Positions 3,248 to 20,381 of a stretch of 64,000 nt of DNA are shown in pieces. The notes below the pieces were generated by a model that was not told where the DNA came from, searched no databases, and was given only the letters and a program-made list of their open reading frames with translations. Each line of letters opens with the position of its first letter. Position 1 is the first letter of the stretch. Source of the DNA: an uncultured Nitrospira sp. Lineage in GTDB: Bacteria > Nitrospirota > Thermodesulfovibrionia > Thermodesulfovibrionales > UBA6898. Location of the stretch: contig CAVTHB010000003.1 of assembly GCA_963734475.1 (NCBI GenBank), forward strand, positions 60,390 to 124,389, given 5' to 3'. The translations under genes and the position numbers were made by a program.

Positions 3248-4903
<1,656 letters not shown>

Positions 4904-4972
4904 GCTCACCTCCATGTGCCGTTAGGGTATATTCTCATAATAAAGTACAGACAGGCAAGACTAAATTCCGTA

Positions 4973-6563: not shown

Positions 6564-6580
6564 GTCCCTTTCCTGTATTC

Positions 6581-7273
6581 TTATCTTATCTCTTTCCTTG
6601 ATTTATACCATGCAATCGTCTTTTTTGCGACCAGGGGCAAGAGTCCGAGCAGCGCGAATGATATTATGAGGCCAGGTGACAGGATGCCTGCGAGGGAATC
6701 TATCTTTGCAAGTTCTTTTCCCGCATTGACGTAAACAATAGTAGCGGGCAGCATCCCTGCCTGCGATACCCAGTAGAATGTTCTGAGGGGCATCCTTGCG
6801 AGGCCCAGGACAAGGTTAATCACGAAGAAGGGGAAGACTGGAATAAGGCGCAACGTGAAAAGATAGAACACGCCTTCGCGTTCTATACCGCTGTTGACGG
6901 TCTTCAGCTTTTCTCCAAACTTTTCCTGTACCCAATCCCGCAGGACGAAGCGCGACACAAAGCAGGCCAGGGTCGCTCCGATACTGCTGGCAAAGGAAAC
7001 AATTATTGTGCCTCTCAGCAGCCCAAACAGTGCGCCACCTGCAAGGGTCATTACAGCGGCTCCGGGCAGCGATAAGGATGTCACCAGGATATAGATGAGC
7101 ATGTACGCCCCGATGACGATGACCGTATGATCGGCATACAATGCCATAAAATTATGCTGCGATTGTTTTATATAGGAGAGTGACAGATAATCTCCGAGGT
7201 TAAATATTTTATAAGCAGCGACAGCCAGGGCAATAAGCGCGAGAATTATTATCTTGTTTAGGTATTTCTTCAT
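6581..7273 (-). CDS. TVP38/TMEM64 (DedA/SNARE-associated) family membrane protein
   Basis: Multi-TM 230-aa ORF with the family-typical FLFTLRLIPVFPFFVINL segment. It lies immediately downstream of the disulfide oxidoreductase, which is a commonly seen pairing. Confidence 0.75.
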   Translation of the reverse strand: MKKYLNKIIILALIALAVAAYKIFNLGDYLSLSYIKQSQHNFMALYADHTVIVIGAYMLIYILVTSLSLPGAAVMTLAGGALFGLLRGTIIVSFASSIGATLACFVSRFVLRDWVQEKFGEKLKTVNSGIEREGVFYLFTLRLIPVFPFFVINLVLGLARMPLRTFYWVSQAGMLPATIVYVNAGKELAKIDSLAGILSPGLIISFALLGLLPLVAKKTIAWYKSRKEIR

Positions 7274-7344
7274 CTGTGTTATGGAAAATAATCAAAGAGA
7301 ATACTTAGAAAAGCTTTGAATATAAACAAATCGAAAGCGCATAC

Positions 7345-7425
7345 CTCTCTCTGTGCTCTCATAGTATTAGCCTCTGCATTCTATAAATCTACAATTCTTT
7401 TTCTCTGTGTTCTCTGTGGTGCATT
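7345..7425. repeat. Family B element, partial (single orientation)
   Basis: The segments are ctctctctgtgctctc ... ttctctgtgttctctgtggtgca. Confidence 0.55.
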
Positions 7426-7434
7426 TCTGAGACT

Positions 7435-8406
7435 TCATGTCATCTCTTCCAGGTCCTTTAGCGTTTGCAGCGCCAGCATTGCCCCGCCCCAGAGTCCGCT
7501 GTTTTCGTCCTTTATGAGGAAGACGGGGATCTTTGAGAGTAAGTCAGCAAGGGTATCGGAACTCCGGAACTCAGTTTCAAAGGCCGGATGGGTAAGCAGT
7601 TCAGGTGTTTTGGCCGCCACGCCCCCAGCAACATACAAACCGCCCATAGCCAGGGTTTCAAGAACATAGTTGCGGCAGACCCTGGCGCAAAACATCGAGG
7701 CCCATTCGAGCGTCTCCGGATAGATGGAAAATTCCTTCACTACATCAGAGGGTTCCAGATTTCTGCCGGTAAAAAAATAATGAAGATAGCTGAGACCTCT
7801 GCCTGAGACAACCGTATTGGCCGTGATGTATTTGTCCTTTCTCTCCTCCATGAGGAAATTCTGATATTCAAATTCTCTGGCGGAAATAAATGGAAAATTT
7901 GTGTGGCCTCCTTCTGAGGGCAGCGCTATGTATCCTCGTTTGACAGAAGGCATGGACACAGCTTTTCCGAGCCCTGTACCGGCTCCGATCACCGCTCTGG
8001 CTGCGGCTGGGTCCGGAAATCCGGGAAGGATTTGTTCTGCCGCTTCGCCGATCGGCGAACGGCAGGCAAAGGCCTGCGCGATAAAGTCATTGATCAGCAT
8101 ACATTTTTTGAATCCGAAATCCTTTTCTGCTGATGAGATATCGATGCCCCACGCTATCAATGGCGGTTTGCTCCGGACTTTCTTCTCGACAGGGCCTGCA
8201 ACAGCGATTATAACCATGTCTGAGGCCCCTGGTTCCAAAGAAAAGCTGCTCTTTCTCAGGTTGGCGATCAGATCAGGGAAAGATGCTGCTTCGACCGTGT
8301 TTAACCATATTGCTTCGACAAGCGACAACCTGTCTTCGCCGTCAATCCTGAAGTGGCCAAACCTGCTGTGCGTTCCGCCTATGTCTGCTGCGAGGATGTT
8401 TTTCAT
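7435..8406 (-). CDS. glk: Glucokinase
   Basis: N-terminal ATP-binding motif LAADIGGTHSRFG, and length and pattern typical of the Glk family. Confidence 0.8.
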   Translation of the reverse strand: MKNILAADIGGTHSRFGHFRIDGEDRLSLVEAIWLNTVEAASFPDLIANLRKSSFSLEPGASDMVIIAVAGPVEKKVRSKPPLIAWGIDISSAEKDFGFKKCMLINDFIAQAFACRSPIGEAAEQILPGFPDPAAARAVIGAGTGLGKAVSMPSVKRGYIALPSEGGHTNFPFISAREFEYQNFLMEERKDKYITANTVVSGRGLSYLHYFFTGRNLEPSDVVKEFSIYPETLEWASMFCARVCRNYVLETLAMGGLYVAGGVAAKTPELLTHPAFETEFRSSDTLADLLSKIPVFLIKDENSGLWGGAMLALQTLKDLEEMT

Positions 8407-8543
8407 TTATACCTTAGATACTATCATGCCCGGCGTTATTGGTTAACCGTAAATACGCATTTGACCCAGAAGAAGCTGTCACTGCGGCATTATAAAGATT
8501 TTTTTACATATCCGCGCAAAAGTGCGTCTTTCAGGTTTATGCA

Positions 8544-9314
8544 TCATTTATACACCTCGATGTAATCGACATAAGAGACCGAGCTTTCCCCTGTGTTGTC
8601 GGAGTCGTTCATGATGGCGATGTCTGCAATAGCAGGCGGCTGAACTCCGAAGGCCTTTTTATAGTCTTCGAGGATGTCCGCCTCCTCTGTAATCCATTGT
8701 CCGGCCTTTTCCCCGCCAGCTTCCATGCTTATCATCTTTGCCTCACTGGCATAGGGATTGGTAATGATCTTTTCCGGATACGTACTGTTGGCCCAGACAT
8801 AATTCAGGCTGCTCTGTGGAGGATATTCACCGTAGATTATTTTGGCCAGCCCATACCTGATCCTCTGGAAGAAGGAGGCTGTTTCCGGATCATATTTGAA
8901 TATTACATAGATGCGGATAGGGTAGTCATCTCCTGCCTTTTTTTCCGGGTCCGCTTTTTTATATGCGTTGCTTATCTTCCATCGCCATTTGATCTTAGGG
9001 TAGTCGTACACATTGAATTCCTTCCTGTATATTATCCCTGATGCAGATGCATTGCTTTCAGCCTTCAGATAAGATCCATTCTGTTCTTTGACGACCGTGT
9101 ATATGCTGTGTCTTTTGATCTTCGGAAAGTATAAGGGCTTCCAGTCATCGAGGCTGTTGAAATCCTCTCTGATGAATACACGCTTCTCCTGGCCAAAAGA
9201 GGGAAGAGCAGTGAAATTCATAAAGAGCAGGGTGAAAAGAACAATAGTACTCAGTGAGTCCAACAATACCGGACCAGCAGGCCAACTGCCTGCTATTGTA
9301 TCGAGCCTATTCAA
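8544..9314 (-). CDS. DUF3047 domain protein (secreted or membrane-anchored)
   Basis: The pattern EDFNSLDDWKPLYFPKIKRHSIY...DDYPIRIYVIF matches DUF3047 as I remember it. A hydrophobic N-terminal segment is present. The listed start is a TTG at 9314 and the true start is probably further downstream. The 5' end overlaps the possible Sec extension of the upstream gene. Confidence 0.65.
   Translation of the reverse strand: MNRLDTIAGSWPAGPVLLDSLSTIVLFTLLFMNFTALPSFGQEKRVFIREDFNSLDDWKPLYFPKIKRHSIYTVVKEQNGSYLKAESNASASGIIYRKEFNVYDYPKIKWRWKISNAYKKADPEKKAGDDYPIRIYVIFKYDPETASFFQRIRYGLAKIIYGEYPPQSSLNYVWANSTYPEKIITNPYASEAKMISMEAGGEKAGQWITEEADILEDYKKAFGVQPPAIADIAIMNDSDNTGESSVSYVDYIEVYK
9276..9294 (-). promoter_or_regulatory. 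SECIS-like hairpin downstream of the in-frame UGA
   Basis: Minus-strand sequence: UGA-AUAGGCUCGAUACAAU-AGCAGGC-AGUUG-GCCUGCU. This is a perfect 7-bp stem with a 5-nt loop containing GU. The apical loop starts 23 nt after the UGA. Confidence 0.5.
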
Positions 9315-10240
9315 GTCGAGCCCTGTCCTGCTGTGCAGCCATAGCAGTGGTCATCAACAGCCAGCTGCCGTCCGGACAGCAGGCGATGGTCGAAATCCCT
9401 GAGAGTGCGGGGATACGTGTCGGGTAATCTGAGCCCGATCATCTGGTTGAAATCACAGTCATAAAGAGTCCCGTCCCATCCGACATTGACCAGGCGTCTG
9501 CACATTATCCCCGTTAATGTTTCAGGGTTGAACGCGCAGCTCAGCTTTTCCATATACCTGTTGAAATTACCGGAGCGAATCAGAAATTCCCGGAAACGGC
9601 CGATAGGCATATTGGCAAAGGTATAGAGGGAGTTGAAGTCGACGTCATATTTTCCCTTCAGTTCTTTGCGGTATTCGTCTTCGAGACCGGCCTGAGAAGG
9701 CGGCAGAAATGCCCCCTGCGGGTTATATACCAGGTTCAGCTTCTTTGTTTCTGTGCCGTATCCAAGGCTGTTAAGTCTTTGCATTGCTGCTATGCTTTTC
9801 ATAAATGTGCCACTCCCCCTGACTTTATCGACACCTGTATCATTATAATAGGGAAGTGACGCGATGATTTCTACGTTGTTTCGGCTGTAGAAGTCAAACA
9901 GGTCTTCCATGCCGTTTTCGAGGAATATTGTCAGGTTGCTTCGCGCTATCACATGACAGCCTATATGTTTCGCCTGTTCAACCAGGTAGCTGAACCCGGG
10001 ATTGAGTTCAGGCGCTCCGCCTGTGATGTCCAGCAGCCTTATATTGCTGTTATCTAATACCCTGAGCACCTCTTCGATCATCTGTTGGTCCATCTTCTCT
10101 TTCCTGGCGGGTCCTGCGCTGACATGGCAGTGTTTGCAGGCCATATTGCAGGCATATCCCAGATTCACCTGCAGGATATCTATCCCGTTTGCATGCAGCG
10201 GGCCTGACTGGACTGTCAGGACTTTGTCCCTGAAATTCAT
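9311..10240 (-). CDS. Radical SAM/Cys-rich domain protein (ArsS-like). It ends at TGA and probably reads through as selenocysteine to the TAG at 9293.
   Basis: It has the CNMACKHC radical SAM motif and a C-terminal Cys-rich domain ending HCYGCTAGQGST-TGA. After the TGA the frame continues in-frame as IGSIQ-TAG. A 7-bp hairpin follows the TGA. Confidence 0.85.
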   Translation of the reverse strand: MNFRDKVLTVQSGPLHANGIDILQVNLGYACNMACKHCHVSAGPARKEKMDQQMIEEVLRVLDNSNIRLLDITGGAPELNPGFSYLVEQAKHIGCHVIARSNLTIFLENGMEDLFDFYSRNNVEIIASLPYYNDTGVDKVRGSGTFMKSIAAMQRLNSLGYGTETKKLNLVYNPQGAFLPPSQAGLEDEYRKELKGKYDVDFNSLYTFANMPIGRFREFLIRSGNFNRYMEKLSCAFNPETLTGIMCRRLVNVGWDGTLYDCDFNQMIGLRLPDTYPRTLRDFDHRLLSGRQLAVDDHCYGCTAGQGST

Positions 10241-10268
10241 GAAATAGCAGTTCCTCTTTTCATATCAG

Positions 10269-10601
10269 TTACATCGATATCTTGTCTGCTGAATTATGGG
10301 CCTGTATGCCGTGTATCAGCGAGGCCCCGCCCCTTACAGCAGATGCCACATGCAGGGCCTCGGTTATATGTTCGAGGTTCATTCCCTCTTCAAGACAGGA
10401 CTTTGTATACGCATCTATACAGTAGGGGCACTGGACAGCATGCGCAACGCCAAGTCCTATAAGGACCTTCTCCCTTTTTGTAAGGGTCCCCGGCTGAAGA
10501 GCTGAGGTGTACCAGGCCATAAATTTTTTGAAGAGCTCGGGGCTGTGCTTGCCGATCTCTCCGAAACGCTCCAGGTCTTCATCATTATAATAATCGCCCA
10601 T
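10269..10601 (-). CDS. AhpD/carboxymuconolactone-decarboxylase-family peroxidase-like protein (rSAM/ArsS-associated type)
   Basis: 110 aa with the CxxC motif VQCPYCIDAYT. It lies directly upstream of the radical SAM/Cys-rich gene. Confidence 0.8.
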   Translation of the reverse strand: MGDYYNDEDLERFGEIGKHSPELFKKFMAWYTSALQPGTLTKREKVLIGLGVAHAVQCPYCIDAYTKSCLEEGMNLEHITEALHVASAVRGGASLIHGIQAHNSADKISM

Positions 10602-10858: not shown

Positions 10859-10902
10859 ACTGCAAAACATAGTATGCAACGGGCAATGAAAAGGGGGTGT
10901 AT

Positions 10903-11814
10903 ATGCAGATAGGAATGGTAGGTCTCGGCCGCATGGGTATGAACATGGCGTTACGCTTGCTCCGGGGCAGGCATGCTGTTGTTGCCTATAATCGTACTCC
11001 TGAGAAGGTCAAGGAGGTAGTAAAAAAGGGTGCGAAAGGGGCTTACACCTTGGAGGAACTTGTCACTGCGCTGAGACCCCCCCGCCATATCTGGATCATG
11101 CTTCCGGCCGGTCTGCCTGTTGATGAAACTATTACAAAGCTTAAGGGTCTGCTTCAAAGGGGTGATACTGTTATAGATGGAGGCAACAGCTTCTACAAAG
11201 ACGATGTCCGCAGGGAGCAGCAGCTAAGGCCTAGTGATATTCACTATCTGGACGCTGGTGTCAGCGGTGGTATATGGGGCCTCAAAATCGGTTACTGTCT
11301 CATGGTCGGCGGGGAGAAGAGGGTTTACAAGCGTCTTGAACCGGTCTTCAAAACCCTGGCGCCGAAGGACGGATATCTGTATTGCGGTCCTGCGGGGGCC
11401 GGTCATTTCGTGAAGATGGTTCATAACGGCATTGAGTACGGCATGATGTCGGCCTATGGAGAAGGGTTCGGGATCCTGAATGCGTCTCCGTATGCAGGAG
11501 GGCTTGATTTTGCGAAGGTGGCCCATCTGTGGAACCAGGGCAGTGTCGTGCGTTCGTGGCTGCTGGAACTGGCTGAGGACGCCTTTGAAAAGGACAAGGA
11601 CCTGTCGTTGATCCAGGGATATGTAGAGGATTCCGGTGAGGGTCGCTGGACATTGCAGCAGGCGATCGATACCGGCGTCCCGGCACCGGTTATATCCGCC
11701 GCGCTTTTTCAGCGGTTCCGGTCGCGGACAACTGATCCTCTTTCAGACAGGGTTCTGGCTGCTCTCAGGAACGAGTTCGGCGGGCATGCGGTCAAGAGCA
11801 AAAAGAAGTCCTAG
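10903..11814 (+). CDS. gnd: 6-phosphogluconate dehydrogenase, short decarboxylating (Gnd-like/YqeC) form
   Basis: N-terminal Rossmann motif MQIGMVGLGRMGMNMA, and a C-terminal 6PGD domain with GHFVKMVHNGIEYG. An AAGGGGG RBS lies 5 nt before the ATG at 10903. Confidence 0.88.
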   Translation: MQIGMVGLGRMGMNMALRLLRGRHAVVAYNRTPEKVKEVVKKGAKGAYTLEELVTALRPPRHIWIMLPAGLPVDETITKLKGLLQRGDTVIDGGNSFYKDDVRREQQLRPSDIHYLDAGVSGGIWGLKIGYCLMVGGEKRVYKRLEPVFKTLAPKDGYLYCGPAGAGHFVKMVHNGIEYGMMSAYGEGFGILNASPYAGGLDFAKVAHLWNQGSVVRSWLLELAEDAFEKDKDLSLIQGYVEDSGEGRWTLQQAIDTGVPAPVISAALFQRFRSRTTDPLSDRVLAALRNEFGGHAVKSKKKS

Positions 11815-11840: not shown

Positions 11841-11948
11841 TTCACCACAGAGGACGCAGAGATCGCAGAGGTTAAGATAACATTGTTTCCCTGTGAGTGG
11901 CCAGACAACAAAATCATCCTCTCCGTGCTCTGCGTCCTCTGCGGTGAA
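11841..11948. repeat. Intergenic inverted-repeat element, family B (TTCACCRCAGAGGAC...), complete copy
   Basis: The left arm is ttcaccacagaggacgcagagatcgcagagg. The reverse complement of the right arm is ttcaccgcagaggacgcagagcacggagagg. The spacer is about 46 bp and the CAGAG motif has 9-nt phasing. Confidence 0.8.
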
Positions 11949-11968: not shown

Positions 11969-14900
11969 ATGCCGGAAATAATTGATATATGCAGTCTTGA
12001 TTATCTGATAGGCACACTGGCCACTGCTTACAAGGGGCTTATCACTTCCCTGATCGCAAAAGATTTCTGCATGACCGAGAGTGAAGCTAAAGTTACGCTT
12101 AAGGGGACTGTCCTGTCTATGCCTGAGGGGGCTTACCAGGCGTTTCTCATGCAGGGGGGCATAGAACTGGCAAGGGCTGAAATGAGAGGCGGTTTTTTTG
12201 AGTTCCTTGTTGACAGCGAAAAGGTCAGATACGGCAGGAACCTCCAGATCGATATTGTCCAGAGAGGAAGGCATATAGGAACCTTTTTGCTCAGCCAGGA
12301 ACAGTCAGGGAGTATGTACCGGTCGGCCCTGGAACTATCTGAAGATCTTAAGGGTATAAATTTTCATCAGCTTACGGTCTTTCTGCGTGAGAAGCCGGGA
12401 CTCTTTAAAAGGTCCGAGGAGATAATCTCGAAGGTGCTCTCTACAAAAAAGGACTGGAGAAAGTTTTCTGAGGAGATAAACAGTTTTGCGAAGGACCTGT
12501 TCTGGAGTGAGAGAGAGGCGTTTTATTTCTGGTATGGCATACTTGTGGATTATTCGCACAAGGCGGCCGAGGCCGTTGACAGCGCATTCAGGGAAAAGCC
12601 GGTAGAAAACTTTCTTTTTCTGATCGAACTCCTGCTGGAGAACGAGTCTGACGAAGAAAAGATACTCAGGGCTGCCGGGGTCTGGCTTCGGAAGATGAAG
12701 GAGCCGGTAGACCTTTCCGGCACTCTGCCACAGGTCAGAAAGACCCTGACCGCTCTTCGTTCACGCTTCCCTGACGCTCCCATCGAAGCAGCGCTCCGGC
12801 AGCTTCTGCAATCACTGAAAAGGCTTGCAATGAAAGCCCCTGCCATACCTGCGGCCATTATCGACAGCCTCAGGGGGATTGTCTCAGACAGTGATCTTTC
12901 AAGGCTTATCGTCTACAGTGAAGAAAAAAGGGAAGTCTTACTGATAGAGGTAAAAGAACTTGAAGCCCTGCTCAGTGCAGGGAGATATACTGAATTGCTC
13001 GTAAGGATCAACGAAACGGACCTCTCTTTTTCTTATGATGCGGAAATGACCGATACCTTCTTTGCTGTTATAGAGAATAATATAAGCGGGGAGACCGCGC
13101 CGGAATATTTCGATGCGCTTGTTGTCTTTTTATCACTCTTTGCAGCATTGTCGCCGGAGGCATATAAAAGGGGTGTGCTGAACCTCGCGGGACTAATACG
13201 CTATCTCATAAGGCACAGGCTTGTAACGACATGCGCCGGCCTGCTGGGCAATATCGAGAGAGCCGGCCCCGGCATAAAAGAGGATCTCCTGCTGAACACT
13301 GAAATCGCGGCCTCGATCTGTGACGCGGGCAGTGAGACTCTTACAAAACAATACAGGGCGCTCCTTAGACAGATCGTGGTCCCTTTTCCGAGGATTACCG
13401 GCTTCTCGACCGACTCATGGGCCGAGATTGTACCCGGCCCTCACCTGGAAAGGCTGACCGCGTTCCTCTCTATCATCCGGCTGGACAGTGTCTGCTTCAG
13501 GGATGTACTGGTGCATCTTATCTGCAACCTTTCCGTAACAGGGGTCTTTATCCCTGATGACAAGCTTTTTCAGCGTGAAGTATCCTCCTATCTGAATTCA
13601 GCAGTTCTGGAGGAAGACTTCCTGCTGCATTACATACTTCTCAGGAAATTGCCTGTCTTCTTCAATGAGGTCGGGGCCTCCGGGAAGATAAGGGATTATA
13701 CTACTGAAATAGATGCCTGGGGCAACGACACTGTCCTCTATTTTCTGAGGAAGCAGGTCCATGTAAATGCGAGCAGTCAGAACATTGTCCTGGTCGAAAA
13801 GATAATACAGACCTGGCTGCGCCGGGACCCGGAAATCCTCAAAGACGTTGTGCCGGGGGAGATACTGAACAGGCTCGATGTGTCACTTCTCAATCGATAT
13901 TCAGCAGCGCTCCGGCCATTTTTTGAAGGCCTGAAAGTTGTTAAAGGCGGGGAGCTCTGCGTGGAAAAACTCCTTTCTCTTTCAGAAGGGGAACTGGAAC
14001 GGGGTCTGGCAGCCATTGAGACGGAAGAGGAGATCAGGGAAAAAATATTGCTCCTCAGCAGAATATACCTTGAGCTCCAAAAGAAATATTCACTCGAGAA
14101 CAGGAATATCCCGCATGAAGTTGCGGAGCAAAACGAACTCTGCGCAATGCTGGGCAGGAATATCGCGGGGATGAAAGAGCTTTGCAAAACCGTTATTTCT
14201 CCTGAAAAAACGGCGCCCCGGGAATCCCTTTATTTTAAAAGACATATTGCCTTCGGTATCCCCTCGGTTATCGGCACATATCACGAGCCGAAATTCGATG
14301 CCCTGGCAGGCATGCTCAGGATCGGCGAGGAGGTAAGGGTGAGCCTTGAGAAGATAATTTCTTCTGTCGGAAGCGGGTCCGCCGCATATTCTGAGGGCGA
14401 GCCAGGCGAATGGATAATATGTCTTGAAGGCATGCGGGACCTTTTCAATGTTTATGGACTCGGTAATTTTCAGATAGATGAAATTATCACGGTCCTCAGG
14501 ACGAACAGGTTTTTCATTTCCCAGGTAATTGATCTGTTGAGGATCTGGCAGGGGGAACTGGCGGCTATGGCAAATTCTCTCTCAAACACTTTTTATGAGG
14601 GTTTTTCCGGACTGCTTACTGTATTACCCGGGAATGATCTTCCGGAAATCGAACAACTATACGGAAATAGCGCTTTGCCCGGGACAACAGACGTTTATAT
14701 CAGGAACATCTTGAGTTCGGCCGCAGGATTCCTTGAACTTGACAGGCTTCTTGAAAAACTCCTGTCCTTATTAAAGCAGCGTGTTGTATCGGCTCGTGAT
14801 GATATCTTTATGCCGGTCGATACGCTGAAAAAGGAAGAGGAAGTTTTTGTCCTTGACGACCTTTCTGAAGAAGACGCGATGCGTTTGTCTCCTTTGCTCG

Positions 14901-16348
14901 GCGGAAAGGCGAAGAACCTCGCGTACCTCAAACAACAGGGGCTGGAAGTTCCGTCCGGCGTGGTCTTTTCTGCCGAAAAGACGGAATCCTTTCTGCAGTA
15001 CACAGGGGGAGAAGACTTCAAGTCAACTTTAAAAGACGCGGTAAGACATATTGAAGACCGGACAGACAAGGGTTATGGAAGTCCTGTTGATCCTCTCTTT
15101 CTTTCTGTCCGCAGCGGCTCTTATATTTCAATGCCCGGTATCATGTCGTCGATACTCTTTTGCGGTATGAACAGGGAGACACTCAGGGGATTTATAAACT
15201 CCCGCGGGAATGAATGGCTTGCGTACGATTCTTACCGAAGGTTCCTGGAGCACTTCGGTGCTGTTGTGTATGACCTTGGGGGTAATTATTTTGATGCTAT
15301 TCAGCTCTCTTATCTGAACAGCCTGGGGAAGGGGGCGGTGAAGGAATTGGGTACAGAACAGATGAAAACGCTCGCCGGTCTTTATCTGAACGGCCTGGCA
15401 GAACGGGGAATGCCTGTCCCTGAGGATGTATATGAGCAATTGAGACTTTCTGTCGGCGCTGTCTACCGGTCGTGGTATTCTGACAGGGCGCTTAGGTTCA
15501 GGAACGCGATGAATGTTTCAGAGCATTGGGGGACTTCAGTTTTGATCATGCAGATGATCTATGGCAATGAAAAAAACTCGGGGGCCTCGGTATTTTTTAC
15601 AAGAAGGCCGCCTTCGCTGGAAAAGGGTATTTATGGTGACACAGGAGAAAATTCAACTGGAGCTGATCTTGTAAATGGGAAGCAGGTCAACCTTCCTCTG
15701 GCTCGTCAGCAGGCTAAACATGGACAAAAAAGCCTTGAAGAGCTCGACCCGGGGTTGTTCAGGATGCATCAGGAGCTTGCAATACAAATTGAGAAGGTGA
15801 TGAGGGGAATGCCGCAGGAGGTCGAAGTGACCTATGCGACCGGACCGGAGGGAGGGAGGCATATCTATGTCCTTCAGACAAAGAGAATGGAGGTATACAG
15901 GGGGTTTACAAAGAGGTTTCAGGACGTCTGCCAAATGCATGCGAAGATCATAGGACGCGGGGTGGGAGTCCATGGAGGAGCGCTGAGCGGAGTGGCCACT
16001 TTTTCTTCCAGCCCTGAACGTATCAGAAAATTGCGCATGAGTTCAGGAATGCCGGTGATAGTCCTGAGGGCCATGGCTAGTACGGATGACGTTTCCCTGA
16101 TGCCTGAAGTGAACGGTATAATTACTGTTGCCGGAGGAGTTGCATCGCACGCTTCTATCCTGGCTCAGAAATTTGACCTGGCAGCAGTCGTGGGCTGTAC
16201 TGAGATGCATATGTATTCGGATGAAGAAGGCCAACCGTTCGCAAGGATAGGAAAATACCCGGTGAAGGAAGGCACGCTGATCAGTATGGACGGATCAACG
16301 GGTATGGTGTATTCCGGTTCCTGCGGGAGCACTTATCCGGAGCGGTAA
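11969..16348 (+). CDS. Giant PEP-synthase/PPDK-like dikinase-family protein. An uncharacterised N-terminal region of about 950 aa is followed by an ATP-grasp (PPDK_N) domain and a phosphohistidine swivel domain. There is no PEP/pyruvate TIM-barrel domain.
   Basis: The C-terminal third shows LGGKAKNLAYLKQQGLEVPSGVVF (PPDK_N nucleotide-binding domain) and GGVASHASILAQKFDLAAVVG (PEP-utilizer mobile domain with the catalytic His). The first roughly 950 aa have no motif I recognise. The exact start is uncertain. Confidence 0.8.
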   Translation: MPEIIDICSLDYLIGTLATAYKGLITSLIAKDFCMTESEAKVTLKGTVLSMPEGAYQAFLMQGGIELARAEMRGGFFEFLVDSEKVRYGRNLQIDIVQRGRHIGTFLLSQEQSGSMYRSALELSEDLKGINFHQLTVFLREKPGLFKRSEEIISKVLSTKKDWRKFSEEINSFAKDLFWSEREAFYFWYGILVDYSHKAAEAVDSAFREKPVENFLFLIELLLENESDEEKILRAAGVWLRKMKEPVDLSGTLPQVRKTLTALRSRFPDAPIEAALRQLLQSLKRLAMKAPAIPAAIIDSLRGIVSDSDLSRLIVYSEEKREVLLIEVKELEALLSAGRYTELLVRINETDLSFSYDAEMTDTFFAVIENNISGETAPEYFDALVVFLSLFAALSPEAYKRGVLNLAGLIRYLIRHRLVTTCAGLLGNIERAGPGIKEDLLLNTEIAASICDAGSETLTKQYRALLRQIVVPFPRITGFSTDSWAEIVPGPHLERLTAFLSIIRLDSVCFRDVLVHLICNLSVTGVFIPDDKLFQREVSSYLNSAVLEEDFLLHYILLRKLPVFFNEVGASGKIRDYTTEIDAWGNDTVLYFLRKQVHVNASSQNIVLVEKIIQTWLRRDPEILKDVVPGEILNRLDVSLLNRYSAALRPFFEGLKVVKGGELCVEKLLSLSEGELERGLAAIETEEEIREKILLLSRIYLELQKKYSLENRNIPHEVAEQNELCAMLGRNIAGMKELCKTVISPEKTAPRESLYFKRHIAFGIPSVIGTYHEPKFDALAGMLRIGEEVRVSLEKIISSVGSGSAAYSEGEPGEWIICLEGMRDLFNVYGLGNFQIDEIITVLRTNRFFISQVIDLLRIWQGELAAMANSLSNTFYEGFSGLLTVLPGNDLPEIEQLYGNSALPGTTDVYIRNILSSAAGFLELDRLLEKLLSLLKQRVVSARDDIFMPVDTLKKEEEVFVLDDLSEEDAMRLSPLLGGKAKNLAYLKQQGLEVPSGVVFSAEKTESFLQYTGGEDFKSTLKDAVRHIEDRTDKGYGSPVDPLFLSVRSGSYISMPGIMSSILFCGMNRETLRGFINSRGNEWLAYDSYRRFLEHFGAVVYDLGGNYFDAIQLSYLNSLGKGAVKELGTEQMKTLAGLYLNGLAERGMPVPEDVYEQLRLSVGAVYRSWYSDRALRFRNAMNVSEHWGTSVLIMQMIYGNEKNSGASVFFTRRPPSLEKGIYGDTGENSTGADLVNGKQVNLPLARQQAKHGQKSLEELDPGLFRMHQELAIQIEKVMRGMPQEVEVTYATGPEGGRHIYVLQTKRMEVYRGFTKRFQDVCQMHAKIIGRGVGVHGGALSGVATFSSSPERIRKLRMSSGMPVIVLRAMASTDDVSLMPEVNGIITVAGGVASHASILAQKFDLAAVVGCTEMHMYSDEEGQPFARIGKYPVKEGTLISMDGSTGMVYSGSCGSTYPER

Positions 16349-16391: not shown

Positions 16392-17411
16392 ATGAAAGCA
16401 CAGAATATCGCAATTTTACTGTCATTTTGCTTTTCGCTTTTATTCGCCGGGGTTGTTTCAGCGGAGAAACAAAAAAGCATTTCAGAGCTGAATGAATACG
16501 GCGGCGAATCTATTGAGATCACTACGGAAAAGGGAGATTTTAGGTTTGATGTTATCCGAAAAAAAATTCTATACAATGATAGTAATGGGATAGTCATGAA
16601 AAAGGAAGTGTTTTACACGGAGAAGTTTGCGCGAAAAAGCGGGCATGAAAGACAAATTGACTACTATGGCGGCGACGGGAAAACGTTAAGGATAGAATAC
16701 TTCTATCCGGACAAGTTGGCAAATGAAGAGGGATATTACAGACAAATTGACTACTATGGCGACAATGGAAAAATGATAAAGGAGGAATTGTTCTACACGC
16801 CTAAGTTTTCATCTGAAAAAGGGTTTGACAGATCAATGGTATACTTCGACGAAAATGAGAAAAAAGTGCGCGGTGAAATGTTCCTCACGGATAAGGTCGC
16901 AGGCGAAAAGGGATATGAGATGGCGGTTGAATACTATGATGACAATGGAGATAAGACAAAGAAGGAATATTTCCATTTGGACGGGTCTGGCGGTGAAGAT
17001 GCAGCTAAAGTGGACAAATCTTTTCGTGGTAGCAGCAGAGTTGGCGTTACAAAAAATGAATTGCTGTATACGGACAAGGTAATAAATAAAAATGAATCCA
17101 CCAGGTCGGCAAATTATTATGACAGCGACGGGAAATTGGCAAGAAAAGAAACTTTCTATTCGGAGAAGAACGCTGGTGATAATGGATATAACAGGGAAAT
17201 TGACTACTATGACGGCAGCGGGAAGACTTCAAGGGCAGAAATCTTCTATACGGATGTTTTCGCAGGGAAGAATGGTTTCGATAGAGTAGTAATTTATTAC
17301 AAAGACGGGACACCGACAAGAGTTGAAAAGTATATGAACACGAAACTGGTTAGGAATTCGTCAGTGTCCGATAAACAAAATAAGCGGTCGTCCGGCCGTC
17401 GGGGCCGGTAG
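16392..17411 (+). CDS. Secreted repeat protein (about 30-aa tandem repeats, MORN-variant/YwqK-like)
   Basis: Signal peptide MKAQNIAILLSFCFSLLFAGVVSAE. The repeated unit is E-x-FYT-x-KF-x(3)-G-x(2)-RQIDYY-x(2)-GK, with at least 8 copies. Confidence 0.7.
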   Translation: MKAQNIAILLSFCFSLLFAGVVSAEKQKSISELNEYGGESIEITTEKGDFRFDVIRKKILYNDSNGIVMKKEVFYTEKFARKSGHERQIDYYGGDGKTLRIEYFYPDKLANEEGYYRQIDYYGDNGKMIKEELFYTPKFSSEKGFDRSMVYFDENEKKVRGEMFLTDKVAGEKGYEMAVEYYDDNGDKTKKEYFHLDGSGGEDAAKVDKSFRGSSRVGVTKNELLYTDKVINKNESTRSANYYDSDGKLARKETFYSEKNAGDNGYNREIDYYDGSGKTSRAEIFYTDVFAGKNGFDRVVIYYKDGTPTRVEKYMNTKLVRNSSVSDKQNKRSSGRRGR

Positions 17412-17499: not shown

Positions 17500-19059
17500 A
17501 TGGAAAAGGTTGAACGTCGGACGGTCTCAGGCGGGGGGCAGGGCGCAGGCCGGAATGGTTTGATTGATAATTGCCAGATAGAGGTCCCGGGACCGTTCTG
17601 TCTTGTGATCTTCGGTGCCTCAGGCGACCTGACCAGGAGAAAGATAATCCCTGCGCTTTACAGACTGGAAAGGGACAGGCTGATTCCGGACGATTTCGTG
17701 GTCCTTGGCGTTGCCCGGACAGAAATGAATAACAGCTCATTCCGTGAGCTCATGCGCAAGGAGATAAGCAAGGCCTTTCCTGGGGACTTCGACAAGTCTG
17801 TCTGGAAGACAATGTCAGACCGCCTCTTCTACACGCATGTCGACTACGAACAGCAGGACTCCTTCAGGAGACTGAGAAGGCGTCTGGACAGCCTCGAAAA
17901 AAAGCATAAGACCCTCGGAAACCGCATCCTGTATCTCGCTGTTCCTCCTGAGGTATACGAGCCGATCATTTCGAATATCGGCTCTGCGGGCCTTTCCGTG
18001 GAAGGGGCAGGATATACCCATATCGTCATTGAGAAGCCGTTCGGCCGGGACCTTGAATCAGCGAGAAAGCTTAATGCTGTATTGAAAAGCTCCTTCAGTG
18101 AAAAACAGATATACCGCATGGACCATTATCTTGCGAAGGAGACGGTGCAGAATATCCTGATGTTCAGGTTCGCAAATTCGATATTTGAGCCCCTGTGGAA
18201 CAGGAGATATATCGACCATGTCCAGATTACGGTTGCCGAGACCCTGGGAGTCGGGCACAGGGCAGGCTATTATGAGCAGGCCGGTGTCCTGCGGGACATG
18301 TTCCAGAACCATATATTCCAGCTCCTTGCCCTTACCGCGATGGAACCCCCCTCGATCTTTGAAGCGGAAAGGGTGCGTGATGAGAAGATGAAGGTCTTCC
18401 GCTCCGTAAGGCCCTTTGCCTTTGACAAGCTTGAGGATGTGGCGGTAATCGGACAGTACAGTAAGGGGAAGATAAACGGTGAGGAAGTCCGCGGCTATCG
18501 TGAGGAGACAGAGGTAGCGCCGCATTCTGTGACACCGACATTCGCGGCCATGAAGGTATTTATAGACAACTGGAGGTGGAACAACGTGCCGTTTTACCTG
18601 CGTTCAGGCAAAAGACTCCTGAAGAGGAAGGCTGAAATCTCTGTTCATTTCAAACCTGTTCCTCATCTGATGTTTGCCGGGACGATCACGGAGGGCATAG
18701 AACCTAATACCGTAGTGATGAGGCTGCAACCCGATGAGGGGATCAGCCTTTACTTCCAGGCAAAGTCCCCTGGCACGCGGATCTGCCTGGACCCGGTAGT
18801 AATGGATTTTTCATATCAGAAGGTTTTTTCACTGAACGACTACGAGCGGGTCCTGCTGGACTGCATGCAGGGAGACCAGATGCTGTTTGTTCGCGGTGAC
18901 GGGGTCGAAGAGGCGTGGTCCCTGCTTTCGCCGGTCATAGAAAAGCTGGAAGCAAAAATATATGCGAAGAACCTTTCCATTTATGAGGCAGGATCAGCAG
19001 GCCCGGACAGCGCCCAGGATTTATTGAGAAAGGACGGACGTTCCTGGAGACCGCTGTGA
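17500..19059 (+). CDS. zwf: Glucose-6-phosphate 1-dehydrogenase
   Basis: It has the NADP motif [11 protein letters not shown] and the active-site RMDHYLAKE motif. It is full length. Confidence 0.93.
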
Positions 19060-19086
19060 CAGCTGCTATTATTTCCCTTTATTAGA

Positions 19087-19761
19087 ATGATATCTGTAAT
19101 CATACCGACACTGAATGAAGAAGCATACATGCGAACCTGTCTTGAAGCCGTCGGACAGGAGGACGCTGCCTGTGAGATCATCGTAGCCGATGGGGGAAGC
19201 ACTGACAGGACTGTTGAGATAGCCGAAAGCTTTCAGAAAGTGATGGTTCTGAACACAGATAAAGGCAGGGGGATTCAGATGAATGCCGGGGCCGCATCTG
19301 CTGCAGGAGAGACACTCCTGTTCCTCCATGCGGACACGATACTGCAAAAAGGCTGGAGCCGGGCGATTGAGCAGATGCTGAAGGACAATACCATTGCGGG
19401 CGGCGCTTTTACCTTTGCGATCGATAGTCCCATGAAGAAATACCGGACAGTAGAGCAGTGGGTGAAATTCAGATGCCGCCTTTTTAAACTCCCCTATGGT
19501 GACCAGGCTATTTTTGTCAGAACCGTTTTTTTTAAGAAACTGCAAGGATATAAAAACATACCTCTCATGGAGGATGTTGAGCTTATCGGAAGGCTTAAGG
19601 GGTTGGGGAGGATAGTAGTCCTTGATGCAAGGGCATTTACTTCGGAAAGGAGATGGCTTAGCAAAGGTTTGCTTTACACAGCCGCAATAAACCAGGCGGT
19701 CATGCTGCTTTACAGGCTCGGGATAAGCCCGCATATTCTGGCGAAGATATATTATCGATGA
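19087..19761 (+). CDS. Family-2 glycosyltransferase of the rSAM/selenodomain-associated type
   Basis: MISVIIPTLNEE...IIVADGGSTDRT is a GT-A fold signature. It overlaps the next gene by ATGA. Confidence 0.8.
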   Translation: MISVIIPTLNEEAYMRTCLEAVGQEDAACEIIVADGGSTDRTVEIAESFQKVMVLNTDKGRGIQMNAGAASAAGETLLFLHADTILQKGWSRAIEQMLKDNTIAGGAFTFAIDSPMKKYRTVEQWVKFRCRLFKLPYGDQAIFVRTVFFKKLQGYKNIPLMEDVELIGRLKGLGRIVVLDARAFTSERRWLSKGLLYTAAINQAVMLLYRLGISPHILAKIYYR

Positions 19762-20381
19762 ACAACAGGAACTTCCTGGGATTTTTTGTAAAATTTCCGG
19801 AACCCGGACAGGTGAAAACACGCCTCGCAAAGGACATCGGGCCTTTAGCTGCTTCGGCTTTTTACCGGAGGATCGCGGAATATGTTCTGAAGAGGACCGC
19901 CCCCCTGGATTCCGGCTATCTCAGAATAGTCTTTTATACACCTGAGGAGGAGAAAGAAGGTTTTGAGGAATGGCTGAAGGGTGAAGTTTTTCGGGCACAG
20001 AGGGGAGATGATGTCGGAGAAAGAATGGCAAATGCGCTGAGGGAGATGTTCGAAATGGGAGCGGAGAAGGCGATTGTTGTGGGCGCGGACATCCCGGGTC
20101 TGCACAGGGGAATTGTCGACCGGGCCTTCGGGCAACTCGATAGCTCCGACATAGTTATCGGTCCTGCCATGGATGGCGGTTACTATCTCATTGGGATGAA
20201 ATCAGCGCACCCTGAGGTTTTCCTGAATATCGACTGGGGGACGGCAGATGTCTTAACGCGGACCTTGTTCAATATAAAAGAAACGGGGTTGCTTTATCGT
20301 ACAGTTGAAACCCTGTTCGACGTTGATATTCTCAAAGATTTTCTGAGGGCAGAGGAAATTTTGAAAGATACCGGATACTGA
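19758..20381 (+). CDS. DUF2064 (CofC-like nucleotidyltransferase fold) protein, rSAM/selenodomain-associated type
   Basis: FVKFPEPGQVKTRLA...PAMDGGYYLIG is typical of DUF2064. It is translationally coupled to the GT2 gene. Confidence 0.8.
   Translation: MNNRNFLGFFVKFPEPGQVKTRLAKDIGPLAASAFYRRIAEYVLKRTAPLDSGYLRIVFYTPEEEKEGFEEWLKGEVFRAQRGDDVGERMANALREMFEMGAEKAIVVGADIPGLHRGIVDRAFGQLDSSDIVIGPAMDGGYYLIGMKSAHPEVFLNIDWGTADVLTRTLFNIKETGLLYRTVETLFDVDILKDFLRAEEILKDTGY

What the first reader, a model, noticed from the sequence alone, without database searches (positions are those of the whole stretch)
11969..16348. 1459-aa dikinase-like protein with a roughly 950-aa unknown N-terminal region and no PEP/pyruvate barrel, inserted between gnd and zwf
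**Seen in sequence.**
- The C-terminal roughly 500 aa contain a PPDK/PEP-synthase ATP-grasp domain (LGGKAKNLAYLKQQGLEVPSG) followed by the phosphohistidine swivel domain (GGVASHASILAQ). The protein then ends.
- The preceding roughly 950 aa are non-repetitive and leucine- and glutamate-rich, and match nothing I recognise.

**Established knowledge.** Enzymes with ATP-grasp plus swivel-His but a different third domain phosphorylate diverse acceptors. Examples are rifampin phosphotransferase, phenylphosphate synthase and glucan-water dikinase.

**Inference.** The N-terminal region is probably the acceptor-binding module. Its position between gnd and zwf hints at a carbohydrate or sugar-phosphate-related target, or at a regulatory role.
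Basis: partly seen in the sequence, partly recalled or inferred. Interest (0 to 1): 0.6.

Follow-up and report, generated by a model that had tools for sequence, protein, structure and literature searches.

The report
Barrel-less PPDK-type dikinase, new domain
This intact 1459-residue gene belongs to a widespread, unstudied family of anaerobe proteins that join the ATP-loading and phosphate-carrying-histidine parts of pyruvate phosphate dikinase to a conserved helical domain unlike any solved structure; its place between gnd and zwf is peculiar to this genome, while relatives sit beside GAPDH genes.

Summary
Window 11969-16348 (+) is one intact 1459-aa ORF. Residues ~965-1452 are a PPDK-type ATP-grasp plus phosphohistidine swivel domain, and the protein ends there, without the PEP/pyruvate barrel. 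All tested PPDK catalytic equivalents, including His1394, are kept.

Residues 1-960 match no Pfam, NCBIfam or PDB entry, yet fold confidently into three parts:
- a beta domain (1-125);
- a solenoid-like helical domain (130-470);
- a helical core (480-945), which has no Foldseek match and carries about 17 invariant polar residues, including K757-R758-H759.

It is not a fusion artefact. More than 100 full-length homologues exist, and a profile search found 450 representative clusters. They form two clades: a Nitrospirota type with the beta domain, and a Bacteroidales/Desulfobacterales type without it.

The gnd/zwf position is not conserved (0 of 45 other clade-1 loci). In clade 2, however, 26 of 27 loci carry a dedicated long GAPDH paralogue directly downstream, and one clade-1 subclade sits beside a canonical-type gap gene.

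Best reading: a swivel-histidine phosphotransferase whose new core domain is the second active site, probably tied to triose-phosphate chemistry. The main rival is a VadK-like regulatory kinase. Nothing has been assayed, and earlier reports of this scan reached the same reading for this family.

The parts
11969..16348 (+). Whole gene: 1459-aa barrel-less PPDK-type dikinase-like protein (P0001)
   Evidence: ORF list and translation. More than 100 full-length homologues of 1450-1470 aa.
11969..12343 (+). Residues 1-125: all-beta N-terminal domain, found only in the Nitrospirota-type clade. Cys8, Cys34 and His102 are nearly invariant.
   Evidence: AF2 strands at 5-109. Absent from clade 2 (alignment A2). 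No Pfam hit at E<=10. Searched alone, it finds only fragments of the same family.
12356..13378 (+). Residues 130-470: variable helical, solenoid-like domain
   Evidence: AF2 helices 132-466. Foldseek gives only weak HEAT/ARM-type similarity, TM<=0.25. Present in both clades, from profile position ~131, but poorly conserved.
13406..14803 (+). Residues 480-945: conserved helical core, the candidate second (acceptor) active site
   Evidence: AF2 of residues 470-960 gives pLDDT 87.7 and pTM 0.87. Best Foldseek PDB hit has E 0.22 and TM<=0.13. Invariant in 57 of 57 members: W484, D530, R575, D582, R594, K595, Q596, H598, K706, Y707, K757, R758, H759, S766, G769, E773, R912, D925.
14216..14296 (+). 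Residues 750-776: beta-hairpin carrying the signature YFKRHIAFGIPSV.G.YHEPKFDA
   Evidence: Strands 751-758 and 765-772. This is the most conserved block of the N-terminal region and was used as the search pattern KRHIAFGI. pLDDT falls below 50 at residues 759-761, suggesting a flexible tip.
14861..15883 (+). Residues 965-1305: PPDK-type ATP-grasp nucleotide-binding domain
   Evidence: Family and structure matches. K980, R1048, E1286, Q1303 and K1305 are the equivalents of PPDK K22, R92, E323, Q335 and R337, and are conserved in 57 of 57 members (the last as K or R).
15932..16324 (+). Residues 1322-1452: phosphohistidine swivel domain, with the catalytic His1394 codon at 16148-16150
   Evidence: PF00391. 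Alignment to PPDK residues 385-509. The His is kept in 56 of 57 members, the other being an alignment gap. Codon checked.
10897..11814 (+). gnd (short-form 6-phosphogluconate dehydrogenase). A neighbour here, but not a conserved partner.
   Evidence: TIGR00872, 413.6 bits. Absent beside the gene in all other loci.
16392..17411 (+). 339-aa secreted repeat protein between the gene and zwf. Not a conserved partner.
   Evidence: No Pfam hit. Signal peptide plus repeats. Low G+C of 0.41. Found beside the gene only in this window.
17500..19059 (+). zwf (glucose-6-phosphate dehydrogenase). A neighbour here, but not a conserved partner.
   Evidence: TIGR00871, 622 bits. Absent beside the gene in other loci.

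Best explanation
The gene encodes an active three-site 'swivelling histidine' phosphotransferase derived from pyruvate phosphate dikinase.

**Step 1 (inferred from conserved residues).** The ATP-grasp domain (residues 965-1305) binds ATP and pyrophosphorylates or phosphorylates His1394 on the C-terminal swivel domain, releasing AMP, as in PPDK.

**Step 2 (inferred).**
- The swivel domain is tethered by a single linker at the C-terminal end.
- It carries the phosphoryl group to a pocket in the conserved helical core (residues 480-945).
- That pocket is lined by invariant Arg, Lys, His, Asp and Glu residues, including the K757-R758-H759 hairpin.
- The core replaces the PEP/pyruvate TIM barrel as the second active site.

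**Step 3 (inferred from gene context in relatives).** The acceptor is an anionic metabolite of the triose-phosphate/GAPDH step. The most economical guess is a carboxylate-to-acyl-phosphate conversion, such as 3-phosphoglycerate <-> 1,3-bisphosphoglycerate, coupled to AMP/PPi.

**Other domains (guess).** The beta domain (1-125, Nitrospirota clade only) and the solenoid-like domain (130-470) are accessory, either regulatory or for docking.

**Genomic position.** The site between gnd and zwf is a local accident of this genome, although it lies in a sugar-phosphate neighbourhood that also holds pgi and glk.
For: **Real and intact.**
- One ORF.
- More than 100 full-length homologues at 37-72 % identity.
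- 450 representative clusters at E<=1e-3, always with the same architecture.

**The engine is intact.**
- PPDK is the best match for residues 968-1452.
- Equivalents of PPDK K22, R92, E323, Q335, R337 and H455 are conserved in 57 of 57 non-redundant members.

**The core looks catalytic.**
- The fold is confidently predicted (pTM 0.87).
- About 17 polar or charged residues are invariant across two clades that share only 20-28 % identity there.

**Precedent.** RPH has the same logic: an ATP-grasp domain, an unrelated substrate domain of novel fold, and a C-terminal swivel His (PMC4844700).

**GAPDH link in relatives.**
- 26 of 27 clade-2 loci have a long GAPDH paralogue -1 to 270 nt downstream.
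- That paralogue keeps the catalytic Cys, His and Arg.
- Its tree mirrors the tree of the big protein.
- Six clade-2 loci also have a canonical gap gene upstream, in one case overlapping by 4 nt.
- A nested clade-1 subclade (4 loci) sits before a canonical-type gap gene.

**Local context.** The window also holds pgi, glk, gnd and zwf within 16 kb.
Against: - Nothing has been assayed for any member of the family.
- In the window's own clade, 25 of 29 loci with enough downstream DNA have no GAPDH neighbour, and no other neighbour is conserved.
- The window protein has Lys for the PPDK Arg337 equivalent and Ala for the Thr453 equivalent. Both are minority states.
- The 130-470 region resembles alpha-solenoids, which usually bind proteins.
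- VadK shows that a barrel-less PPDK can act as a regulator through protein contacts (PMC13400623).
- An earlier check recorded in this scan's notes reports low abundance relative to the GAPDH neighbour. I did not verify this. It would fit a regulator better than a trunk-pathway enzyme.
Confidence: 0.5

Rival explanations
1. A VadK-like regulatory histidine kinase. The PPDK-derived half only autophosphorylates. The large N-terminal region is a protein-docking scaffold through which the phospho-state controls, or phosphorylates, a metabolic enzyme: GAPDH in clade 2, and unknown targets in Nitrospirota.
For: - VadK (Rv1127c) is a barrel-less PPDK that autophosphorylates on His and binds methylcitrate-cycle enzymes (PMC13400623).
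- The short-PPDK model NF004531 matches the window protein at 197.8 bits.
- Residues 130-470 give only HEAT/ARM-type Foldseek similarity.
- The variable, mostly monocistronic context in clade 1 fits a regulator.
- An earlier scan note reports low abundance relative to the neighbour (unverified).
Against: - About 17 invariant charged or polar residues in the 480-945 core across both clades are more than a docking surface usually keeps.
- VadK needs no such domain.
- The NF004531 score is far below its cutoff of 456.
- The tight 1:1 co-diversification with a dedicated, catalytically intact GAPDH paralogue is also what an enzyme pair would show.
Confidence: 0.27
2. A true pyruvate/PEP dikinase (an analogue of PPDK or PEP synthase) in which the new helical domain binds pyruvate/PEP in place of the TIM barrel.
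For: - The C-terminal half is closest to PPDK (281 bits to TIGR01828; 1ggo E 1.8e-61).
- Public annotation calls many members 'pyruvate, phosphate dikinase'.
Against: - Those names are automatic transfers from the two shared domains.
- The PEP/pyruvate domain is wholly absent.
- TIGR01828 scores 281 against a cutoff of 843.
- The conserved partner is GAPDH, not a pyruvate-related gene.
- The core has no similarity to any PEP-binding fold.
Confidence: 0.07
3. A phosphotransferase for a quite different acceptor (a xenobiotic, an antibiotic or a polymer, as with RPH or glucan-water dikinase). On this view the GAPDH adjacency reflects shared regulation only.
For: - The ATP-grasp plus swivel engine has repeatedly been combined with unrelated acceptor domains (PMC4844700; PMC12167813 and PMC13534948, listed).
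- In the window and in L011 the gene lies beside the DUF3047/GT2/DUF2064 'rSAM-selenodomain-associated' set.
Against: - There is no similarity to the RIF-binding domain or to other known acceptor domains.
- NCBIfam RPH/PEPS-type models score 14-29 bits against cutoffs of 866-1063.
- The DUF3047-set adjacency occurs in only 2 of 46 clade-1 loci.
- GAPDH adjacency arose or persisted with three different GAPDH arrangements.
Confidence: 0.1
4. An artefact: two genes fused by a missed stop or a mis-assembly, or a decaying pseudo-enzyme.
For: One relative (L004) is split into five ORF pieces.
Against: - The same ~1450-aa single ORF is found in dozens of independent assemblies and in both clades.
- Catalytic residues are invariant.
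- Wetland metagenome contigs from an independent run match pieces inside the gene.
Confidence: 0.01

Closest known systems
Pyruvate, phosphate dikinase (PPDK, EC 2.7.9.1; Clostridium symbiosum 1KBL/1DIK/1GGO; TIGR01828)
   Same: - The ATP-grasp nucleotide-binding domain and the phosphohistidine swivel domain are clearly homologous (E 1.8e-61 to 1ggo).
- The catalytic Lys, Arg, Glu, Gln, Arg and His equivalents are kept.
   Different: - The PEP/pyruvate TIM barrel (about the last 340 aa of PPDK) is absent.
- Some 960 unrelated residues precede the ATP-grasp domain.
- The swivel domain is C-terminal with a single tether.
- The TIGR01828 score is 281 against a cutoff of 843.
VadK (Rv1127c) of Mycobacterium tuberculosis, a barrel-less PPDK acting as a regulatory histidine kinase (PMC13400623)
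   Same: - Only the ATP-grasp and swivel-His domains of PPDK are retained.
- VadK autophosphorylates on the equivalent His and is linked to the control of central carbon metabolism.
   Different: - VadK is about 490 aa with no extra domain.
- The window protein has 960 additional N-terminal residues with their own invariant polar residues.
- The NF004531 score is 197.8 against a cutoff of 456.
- The lineages differ (Actinomycetes versus Nitrospirota, Bacteroidales and Desulfobacterales).
Rifampin phosphotransferase (RPH-Lm; PMC4844700)
   Same: - Three-module logic: an ATP-grasp domain, a large mostly helical substrate domain of novel fold, and a C-terminal swivel His that shuttles between the two sites.
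   Different: - The domain order differs: ATP-grasp, RIF-binding domain, swivel in RPH; new domains, ATP-grasp, swivel here.
- There is no sequence or fold similarity between the substrate domains.
- The ATP-grasp domain here is PPDK-like, not PEPS/RPH-like.
PEP synthase and the other PEPS-type dikinases/ligases (phenylphosphate-synthase-type two-component kinases, PigC/HapC; glucan-water dikinase from general knowledge)
   Same: They use the same ATP-grasp plus phosphohistidine engine with exchangeable acceptor modules (papers listed).
   Different: - Matches are weak and local only: PEPS models score 51-62 bits over the swivel region, and PigC/RedH 16-19 bits.
- The acceptor domains are unrelated.

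Membership tests
Pyruvate, phosphate dikinase (TIGR01828 / EC 2.7.9.1) | N-terminal ATP-grasp nucleotide-binding domain with its catalytic Lys, Arg, Glu, Gln and Arg | tested here: met
   PF01326 hit. Alignment to 1ggo residues 11-336. K980, R1048, E1286, Q1303 and K1305 are conserved family-wide. Residue roles come from the published PPDK literature (my knowledge).
Pyruvate, phosphate dikinase (TIGR01828 / EC 2.7.9.1) | Central phosphohistidine swivel domain with the catalytic His | tested here: met
   PF00391 at residues 1362-1445. His1394 lies in GGVASHAS and aligns to the His of GGMASHAA in chain 1ggo.
Pyruvate, phosphate dikinase (TIGR01828 / EC 2.7.9.1) | C-terminal PEP/pyruvate-binding TIM barrel (PF02896) | tested here: not met
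   No PF02896 hit. The protein ends at the position aligning to PPDK residue ~509. No other part is alpha/beta-barrel-like.
Pyruvate, phosphate dikinase (TIGR01828 / EC 2.7.9.1) | Whole-protein score above the curated cutoff | tested here: not met
   281.4 bits against a cutoff of 843.45.
Short barrel-less PPDK / VadK type (NF004531, PRK05878) | About 490-534 aa consisting only of ATP-grasp plus swivel His, with a score above the cutoff | tested here: not met
   197.8 bits against a cutoff of 456, matching only profile positions 22-298 in the best stretch. The protein is 1459 aa with 960 extra residues.
Short barrel-less PPDK / VadK type (NF004531, PRK05878) | ATP/Mg-dependent autophosphorylation on the swivel His | not testable with these tools
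   Shown for VadK His422 (PMC13400623). Here it is only inferred from residue conservation.
Rifampin phosphotransferase / PEPS-like (PRK06241 models) | PEPS-type ATP-grasp, central RIF-binding domain and C-terminal swivel, with a score above the cutoff | tested here: not met
   NF004877-NF004883 score 14-29 bits against cutoffs of 866-1063. No RPH chain appears in the PDB profile search or among the listed Foldseek hits for the N-terminal region.
Uncharacterised 'giant barrel-less dikinase' family (no curated model; defined here by profile A2) | Conserved helical core with the signature KRHIAFGIPS hairpin and the FLRKQ.H, LFQR and ELD motifs, followed by a PPDK-type ATP-grasp and swivel His | tested here: met
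   All motifs are present in the window protein. It nests inside clade 1 with 99-100 % support.
Uncharacterised 'giant barrel-less dikinase' family (no curated model; defined here by profile A2) | Adjacent GAPDH-family gene | tested here: not met
   No GAPDH-like sequence anywhere in the 64-kb window. The feature is typical of clade 2 (26 of 27 loci) but present in only 4 of 29 clade-1 loci. The rest of the genome could not be searched.

The most novel reading that the evidence does not exclude
The family would be an unrecognised enzyme of the glycolytic/gluconeogenic trunk: an AMP/PPi-linked '3-phosphoglycerate, phosphate dikinase' (3-PG + ATP + Pi <-> 1,3-bisphosphoglycerate + AMP + PPi).
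- Its second active site would lie in a catalytic domain of wholly new fold.
- It would feed, or draw from, GAPDH, and so be the PPDK-style counterpart of phosphoglycerate kinase.
- From textbook hydrolysis energies the reaction would be near equilibrium (about -4 kJ/mol in the ATP-forming direction).
- The Nitrospirota clade, including this gene, would do the same chemistry with an added beta domain and without an adjacent partner gene.
Probability: 0.15. Interest if true: 0.88.

Novelty: new variant of a known kind. Interest (0 to 1): 0.6.

Why it matters
**What is new.** Swivelling-histidine dikinases are a small, mechanistically well-known enzyme class, and each new acceptor domain has meant a new reaction (PEP synthesis, starch phosphorylation, rifampin inactivation, phenol activation). 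This is a large family:
- 450 clusters at 50 % identity;
- anaerobes of at least three phyla;
- an intact engine joined to a confidently folding 470-residue domain with no solved counterpart;
- a dense set of invariant charged residues in that domain;
- in most lineages, a dedicated GAPDH paralogue next door.

**Why that matters.** Whether the protein is an enzyme or a regulator, it marks an undescribed phosphoryl-transfer event close to lower glycolysis/gluconeogenesis in sulfate reducers, Nitrospirota and gut or digester Bacteroidales.

**Annotation.** Public annotation calls many members 'pyruvate, phosphate dikinase'. That name is wrong and misleads metabolic reconstructions.

**This window.** The practical message is more modest. 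The gene is a genuine member of this family. Its gnd/zwf setting should not be over-read.

Tried and rejected
**Searches that found nothing**
- Foldseek of the whole 970-aa N-terminal model gave only generic importin/HEAT-type hits with TM<=0.17. I treat this as no match.
- Foldseek of the core alone found nothing.
- The N-terminal profile against PDB sequences found nothing at E<=10.
- Pfam at E<=10 on three N-terminal pieces found nothing credible.
- The beta domain searched alone found only fragments of the same family and no stand-alone relatives.
- Literature searches for a described member, or for a 'phosphoglycerate dikinase', found none. One query was rejected for syntax.

**Expression**
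- Only DNA metagenomes hold the locus.
- Three metatranscriptomes from the same study show no reads on the gene. They match only short, 90-95 % similar pieces of gnd, zwf and the intergenic repeat.
- Co-transcription with gnd or zwf therefore could not be tested.

**Signals.** The promoter/terminator scan gave counts at chance level.

**Tools unavailable**
- The genome search and the fetch from genomes were shut. I could not ask whether this genome has pgk, a canonical ppdK, or a long GAPDH paralogue elsewhere.
- The context look-up for P0107 (labelled Actinomycetota) found no record.
- Model coordinates are not exposed, so 3-D clustering of the invariant residues and the reach of His1394 could not be measured.

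**Idea rejected.** I considered that gnd, this gene, the 339-aa ORF and zwf form a conserved operon. This is rejected: 0 of 45 other clade-1 loci show it.

Full report
**1. The observation**

Window 11969-16348 (+) is one uninterrupted ORF of 1459 codons with an ATG start.

The C-terminal third is derived from PPDK:
- Pfam PPDK_N matches residues 1016-1220 and PEP-utilizers matches 1362-1445.
- The PPDK equivalog TIGR01828 matches residues 968-1305 to profile positions 9-334 of 865, at 281 bits against a cutoff of 843.
- Clostridium symbiosum PPDK (1ggo) aligns at residues 11-336 and 385-509 with residues 970-1305 and 1322-1452.
- The protein stops seven residues later, so the PEP/pyruvate TIM barrel is absent.

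The first 960 residues are unassigned:
- They have no Pfam hit, even at E<=10.
- They have no NCBIfam hit.
- They have no PDB sequence or profile hit.
- They are Leu-rich (14.1 %) and Glu-rich (9.6 %) and have no internal repeat.

gnd lies upstream at 10897-11814. zwf lies downstream at 17500-19059. A 339-aa ORF (16392-17411) sits between the gene and zwf.

**2. Not an artefact, and not degenerate**

- A word-indexed search with residues 1-950 returned more than 100 full-length proteins of 1450-1470 aa. They have 37-72 % identity and the same two Pfam domains. Nearly all come from Nitrospirota/Thermodesulfovibrionales MAGs.
- An exhaustive profile search with the N-terminal region (alignment A2) found 450 representative clusters at E<=1e-3, of which 200 have E<=1e-30.
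- Full-length hits fall into two length classes. One is ~1450-1470 aa and matches the profile from position 1. The other is ~1350-1430 aa and matches from position ~131. Both have about 500 further residues behind the match.
- I found no full-length protein in which the N-terminal region stands alone or is joined to anything else. The shorter hits look like contig-end fragments.
- The second class comes from Bacteroidales, Tenuifilaceae, Desulfotignum, Desulfobacterium and other Thermodesulfobacteriota. Its members are publicly named 'pyruvate, phosphate dikinase' or 'PEP/pyruvate-binding domain-containing protein'.
- I aligned 57 non-redundant full-length members. The equivalents of PPDK Lys22, Arg92, Glu323, Gln335, Arg337 and catalytic His455 are K980, R1048, E1286, Q1303, K1305 and H1394. 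They are conserved in all members (codons checked). The residue roles come from the published PPDK literature, which I cite from knowledge.
- The window protein carries two minority states. It has Lys for the Arg337 equivalent (5 of 32 clade-1 members). It has Ala for the Thr that precedes the His in PPDK (7 of 32).

**3. Anatomy of the N-terminal region**

AlphaFold2 with a 53-sequence alignment gave a confident model of residues 1-970 (mean pLDDT 86, pTM 0.73). It has three parts:
- an all-beta domain at residues 5-109;
- a helical domain at ~130-470;
- a second helical domain at ~480-945, containing one long beta-hairpin (751-772).

Foldseek of the whole model against the PDB returned only importin/CRM1/designed-ARM solenoids with TM<=0.25. 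I read this as generic helical-repeat resemblance, mainly of the 130-470 part.

The core was also folded alone (residues 470-960; pLDDT 87.7, pTM 0.87). It has no PDB counterpart: the best hit has E 0.22, probability 0.09 and TM<=0.13. No RPH, PPDK or PEPS domain appears among the hits listed in either search.

Conservation is very uneven:
- The beta domain exists only in the Nitrospirota-type clade. There Cys8, Cys34 and His102 are nearly invariant.
- The 130-470 domain is poorly conserved.
- In the core, W484, D530, R575, D582, R594, K595, Q596, H598, K706, Y707, K757, R758, H759, S766, G769, E773, R912 and D925 are identical in 57 of 57 sequences.
- This holds although the two clades share only 20-28 % identity in this region.
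- The hairpin carries the family signature YFKRHIAFGIPSV.G.YHEPKFDA. Its tip (759-761) is the one low-confidence spot inside an otherwise rigid prediction.

A dense set of invariant Arg, Lys, His, Asp and Glu residues is what a phosphoryl-transfer site with an anionic substrate and a metal would look like. This is inference. I could not inspect the coordinates.

**4. Gene context**

I collected 100 loci and reduced them to 75 non-redundant genes: 46 in clade 1 and 29 in clade 2. I then clustered all neighbouring ORFs within 5 kb.

Only one neighbour family recurs, and it is GAPDH.
- In clade 2, 26 of 27 loci with enough downstream DNA carry a 401-424-aa GAPDH paralogue (382 aa in L014). It starts -1 to 270 nt after the stop codon.
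- Six Bacteroidales-type clade-2 loci also have a canonical gap gene immediately upstream. In L017/L018 it overlaps the start by 4 nt.
- The long paralogue scores 293-315 bits on TIGR01534, below the cutoff of 367.
- It keeps the SCTT catalytic Cys, the His and the phosphate-site Arg residues (alignment A4).
- It forms a single clade whose branching mirrors that of the big protein, with L014 basal, then L019/L020, then L094.

Clade 1 is the window's own clade, and there the picture differs.
- Only 4 of 29 loci have a GAPDH gene downstream.
- Those four form one nested subclade (100 % support).
- Their gap gene is of canonical length and groups with canonical gap, not with the long paralogue.
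- No other neighbour occurs in more than 5 of 46 clade-1 loci.
- gnd, zwf and the 339-aa ORF occur beside the gene only in the window.

The window contains no GAPDH-like sequence. The rest of the genome could not be searched.

The window does hold pgi (3248-4915) and glk (7435-8406) as well. The family as a whole is tied to a sugar-phosphate dehydrogenase through three different GAPDH arrangements.

**5. How it most likely works**

*Shown.* The protein has an intact PPDK-type nucleotide domain, an intact swivel-His domain, and a conserved third domain of new fold.

*Inferred.*
- ATP loads His1394 with release of AMP.
- The swivel domain sits at the very C-terminus on a single tether, as in rifampin phosphotransferase (domain order checked in PMC4844700).
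- It carries the phosphoryl group to the conserved core, where the group passes to an acceptor.

*The acceptor.* From the GAPDH linkage, the most economical acceptor is the carboxylate/acyl-phosphate pair that GAPDH handles, 3-phosphoglycerate/1,3-bisphosphoglycerate. That would make the enzyme a PPDK-style counterpart of phosphoglycerate kinase. From textbook hydrolysis energies (1,3-BPG about -49 kJ/mol; ATP to AMP + PPi about -46 kJ/mol) the reaction would be close to equilibrium. This is my own estimate, not a tool result. I give it about 15 %.

I put about 50 % on the broader statement: an active phosphotransferase whose core is the second active site, functionally related to triose-phosphate metabolism.

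**6. Rivals**

- **VadK-like regulator (about 27 %).** This is the strongest rival.
  - VadK (Rv1127c) is a barrel-less PPDK that autophosphorylates on the equivalent His.
  - It binds methylcitrate-cycle enzymes and tunes flux (PMC13400623).
  - The solenoid-like 130-470 domain fits this reading. So does the scattered, mostly monocistronic context in Nitrospirota.
  - Earlier notes of this scan report low abundance relative to the GAPDH neighbour (unverified by me). That would also fit.
  - Against it stand the many invariant polar residues in the core.
- **True pyruvate/PEP dikinase with a new pyruvate domain (about 7 %).** This has only the automatic annotation in its favour.
- **Unrelated acceptor (about 10 %).** This is possible in principle. 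The window and L011 both place the gene next to the DUF3047/GT2/DUF2064 set. That is only 2 of 46 loci.
- **Artefact or decay (about 1 %).** This is contradicted by the homologue survey.

**7. Comparison with known families, and novelty**

The protein fails the membership tests for three known families:
- PPDK: no barrel, and a score far below the cutoff.
- The short VadK-type PPDK: score below the cutoff, and 960 extra residues.
- RPH/PEPS-type enzymes: only weak local matches.

It works like a member of the swivelling-His dikinase class with a new third module. I therefore rate it a new variant of a known kind.

I found no paper describing the family. Earlier notes of this scan show many independent sightings of the family with the same reading. 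I treated them as leads and re-derived the GAPDH statistics and the fold-search negatives here.

This window adds three points:
- A characterisation of the Nitrospirota-type clade: an extra beta domain with conserved Cys, Cys and His.
- The finding that this clade has largely lost the adjacent GAPDH gene, except for one subclade next to a canonical-type gap.
- The finding that the gnd/zwf placement is unique to this genome.

**8. Limits**

- There are no expression data for this organism.
- There was no access to the rest of the genome.
- No member of the family has been tested by experiment.

Noticed in passing
window 16392-17411 (+): A 339-aa ORF with a signal peptide and about eight ~30-aa repeats (FYT.K.A...G..R.IDYY...GK).
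- It has a strong Shine-Dalgarno sequence.
- Its G+C (0.41) is markedly lower than that of its neighbours (~0.50).
- It has no Pfam hit.
- It is not found beside the dikinase-like gene in any other locus, so it may be a recent insertion.
   Followed up: partly
window 11841-11948: An inverted-repeat element lies in the 154-nt gap between gnd and the dikinase-like gene, with arms CACCACAGAGGACGCAGAGATCGCAGAGG / CCTCTCCGTGCTCTGCGTCCTCTGCGGTG. Contigs from wetland DNA and metatranscriptome runs match its arms at 90-95 % and then run on into unrelated sequence. This suggests a dispersed repeat family.
   Followed up: partly
L012, L013, L014, L017-L020 and 20 further clade-2 loci (e.g. L019:10175-11446): A distinct long GAPDH paralogue (401-424 aa; 382 aa in L014).
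- It has several insertions.
- It scores below the TIGR01534 cutoff.
- Its catalytic Cys, His and Arg are intact.
- It co-diversifies with the big protein.
- It appears to be an uncharacterised GAPDH subfamily in its own right.
   Followed up: partly
window 5115-10601 and 19087-20381; L011:6074-9877 and 17747-19135: The window and the distantly related clade-1 locus L011 both place the gene beside the same set of genes: DUF3047, a TIGR04283 glycosyltransferase, TIGR04282/DUF2064, a CMD-family protein and a pyridine-nucleotide-disulfide oxidoreductase. This occurs in only 2 of 46 clade-1 loci, so it may be old synteny or chance.
   Followed up: partly
L004:10001-14370: The homologue in an 'uncultured Nitrospiraceae' MAG is split into five ORF pieces by frameshifts. 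It is either a pseudogene or an indel-rich long-read assembly.
   Followed up: no
L003 (JBLMWN010000048.1); P0107: Two clade-1 members carry non-Nitrospirota labels: 'Betaproteobacteria bacterium' for L003 and 'Actinomycetota bacterium' for P0107. L003 nests deep inside the Nitrospirota-type clade, which suggests mis-binning or recent transfer.
   Followed up: no
L010:6561-9613 and 14406-15152: In one clade-1 genome the gene is flanked upstream by CbbQ (AAA_5) plus a 749-aa protein with no Pfam or NCBIfam match. Fourteen nt downstream lies a beta-phosphoglucomutase-family HAD hydrolase. The CbbQ pair recurs in 3 clade-1 loci.
   Followed up: no
window 20470-21936 (-): A single protein combines HD-GYP (HD_5), receiver and PilZ domains, as another first-stage note had described.
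   Followed up: no
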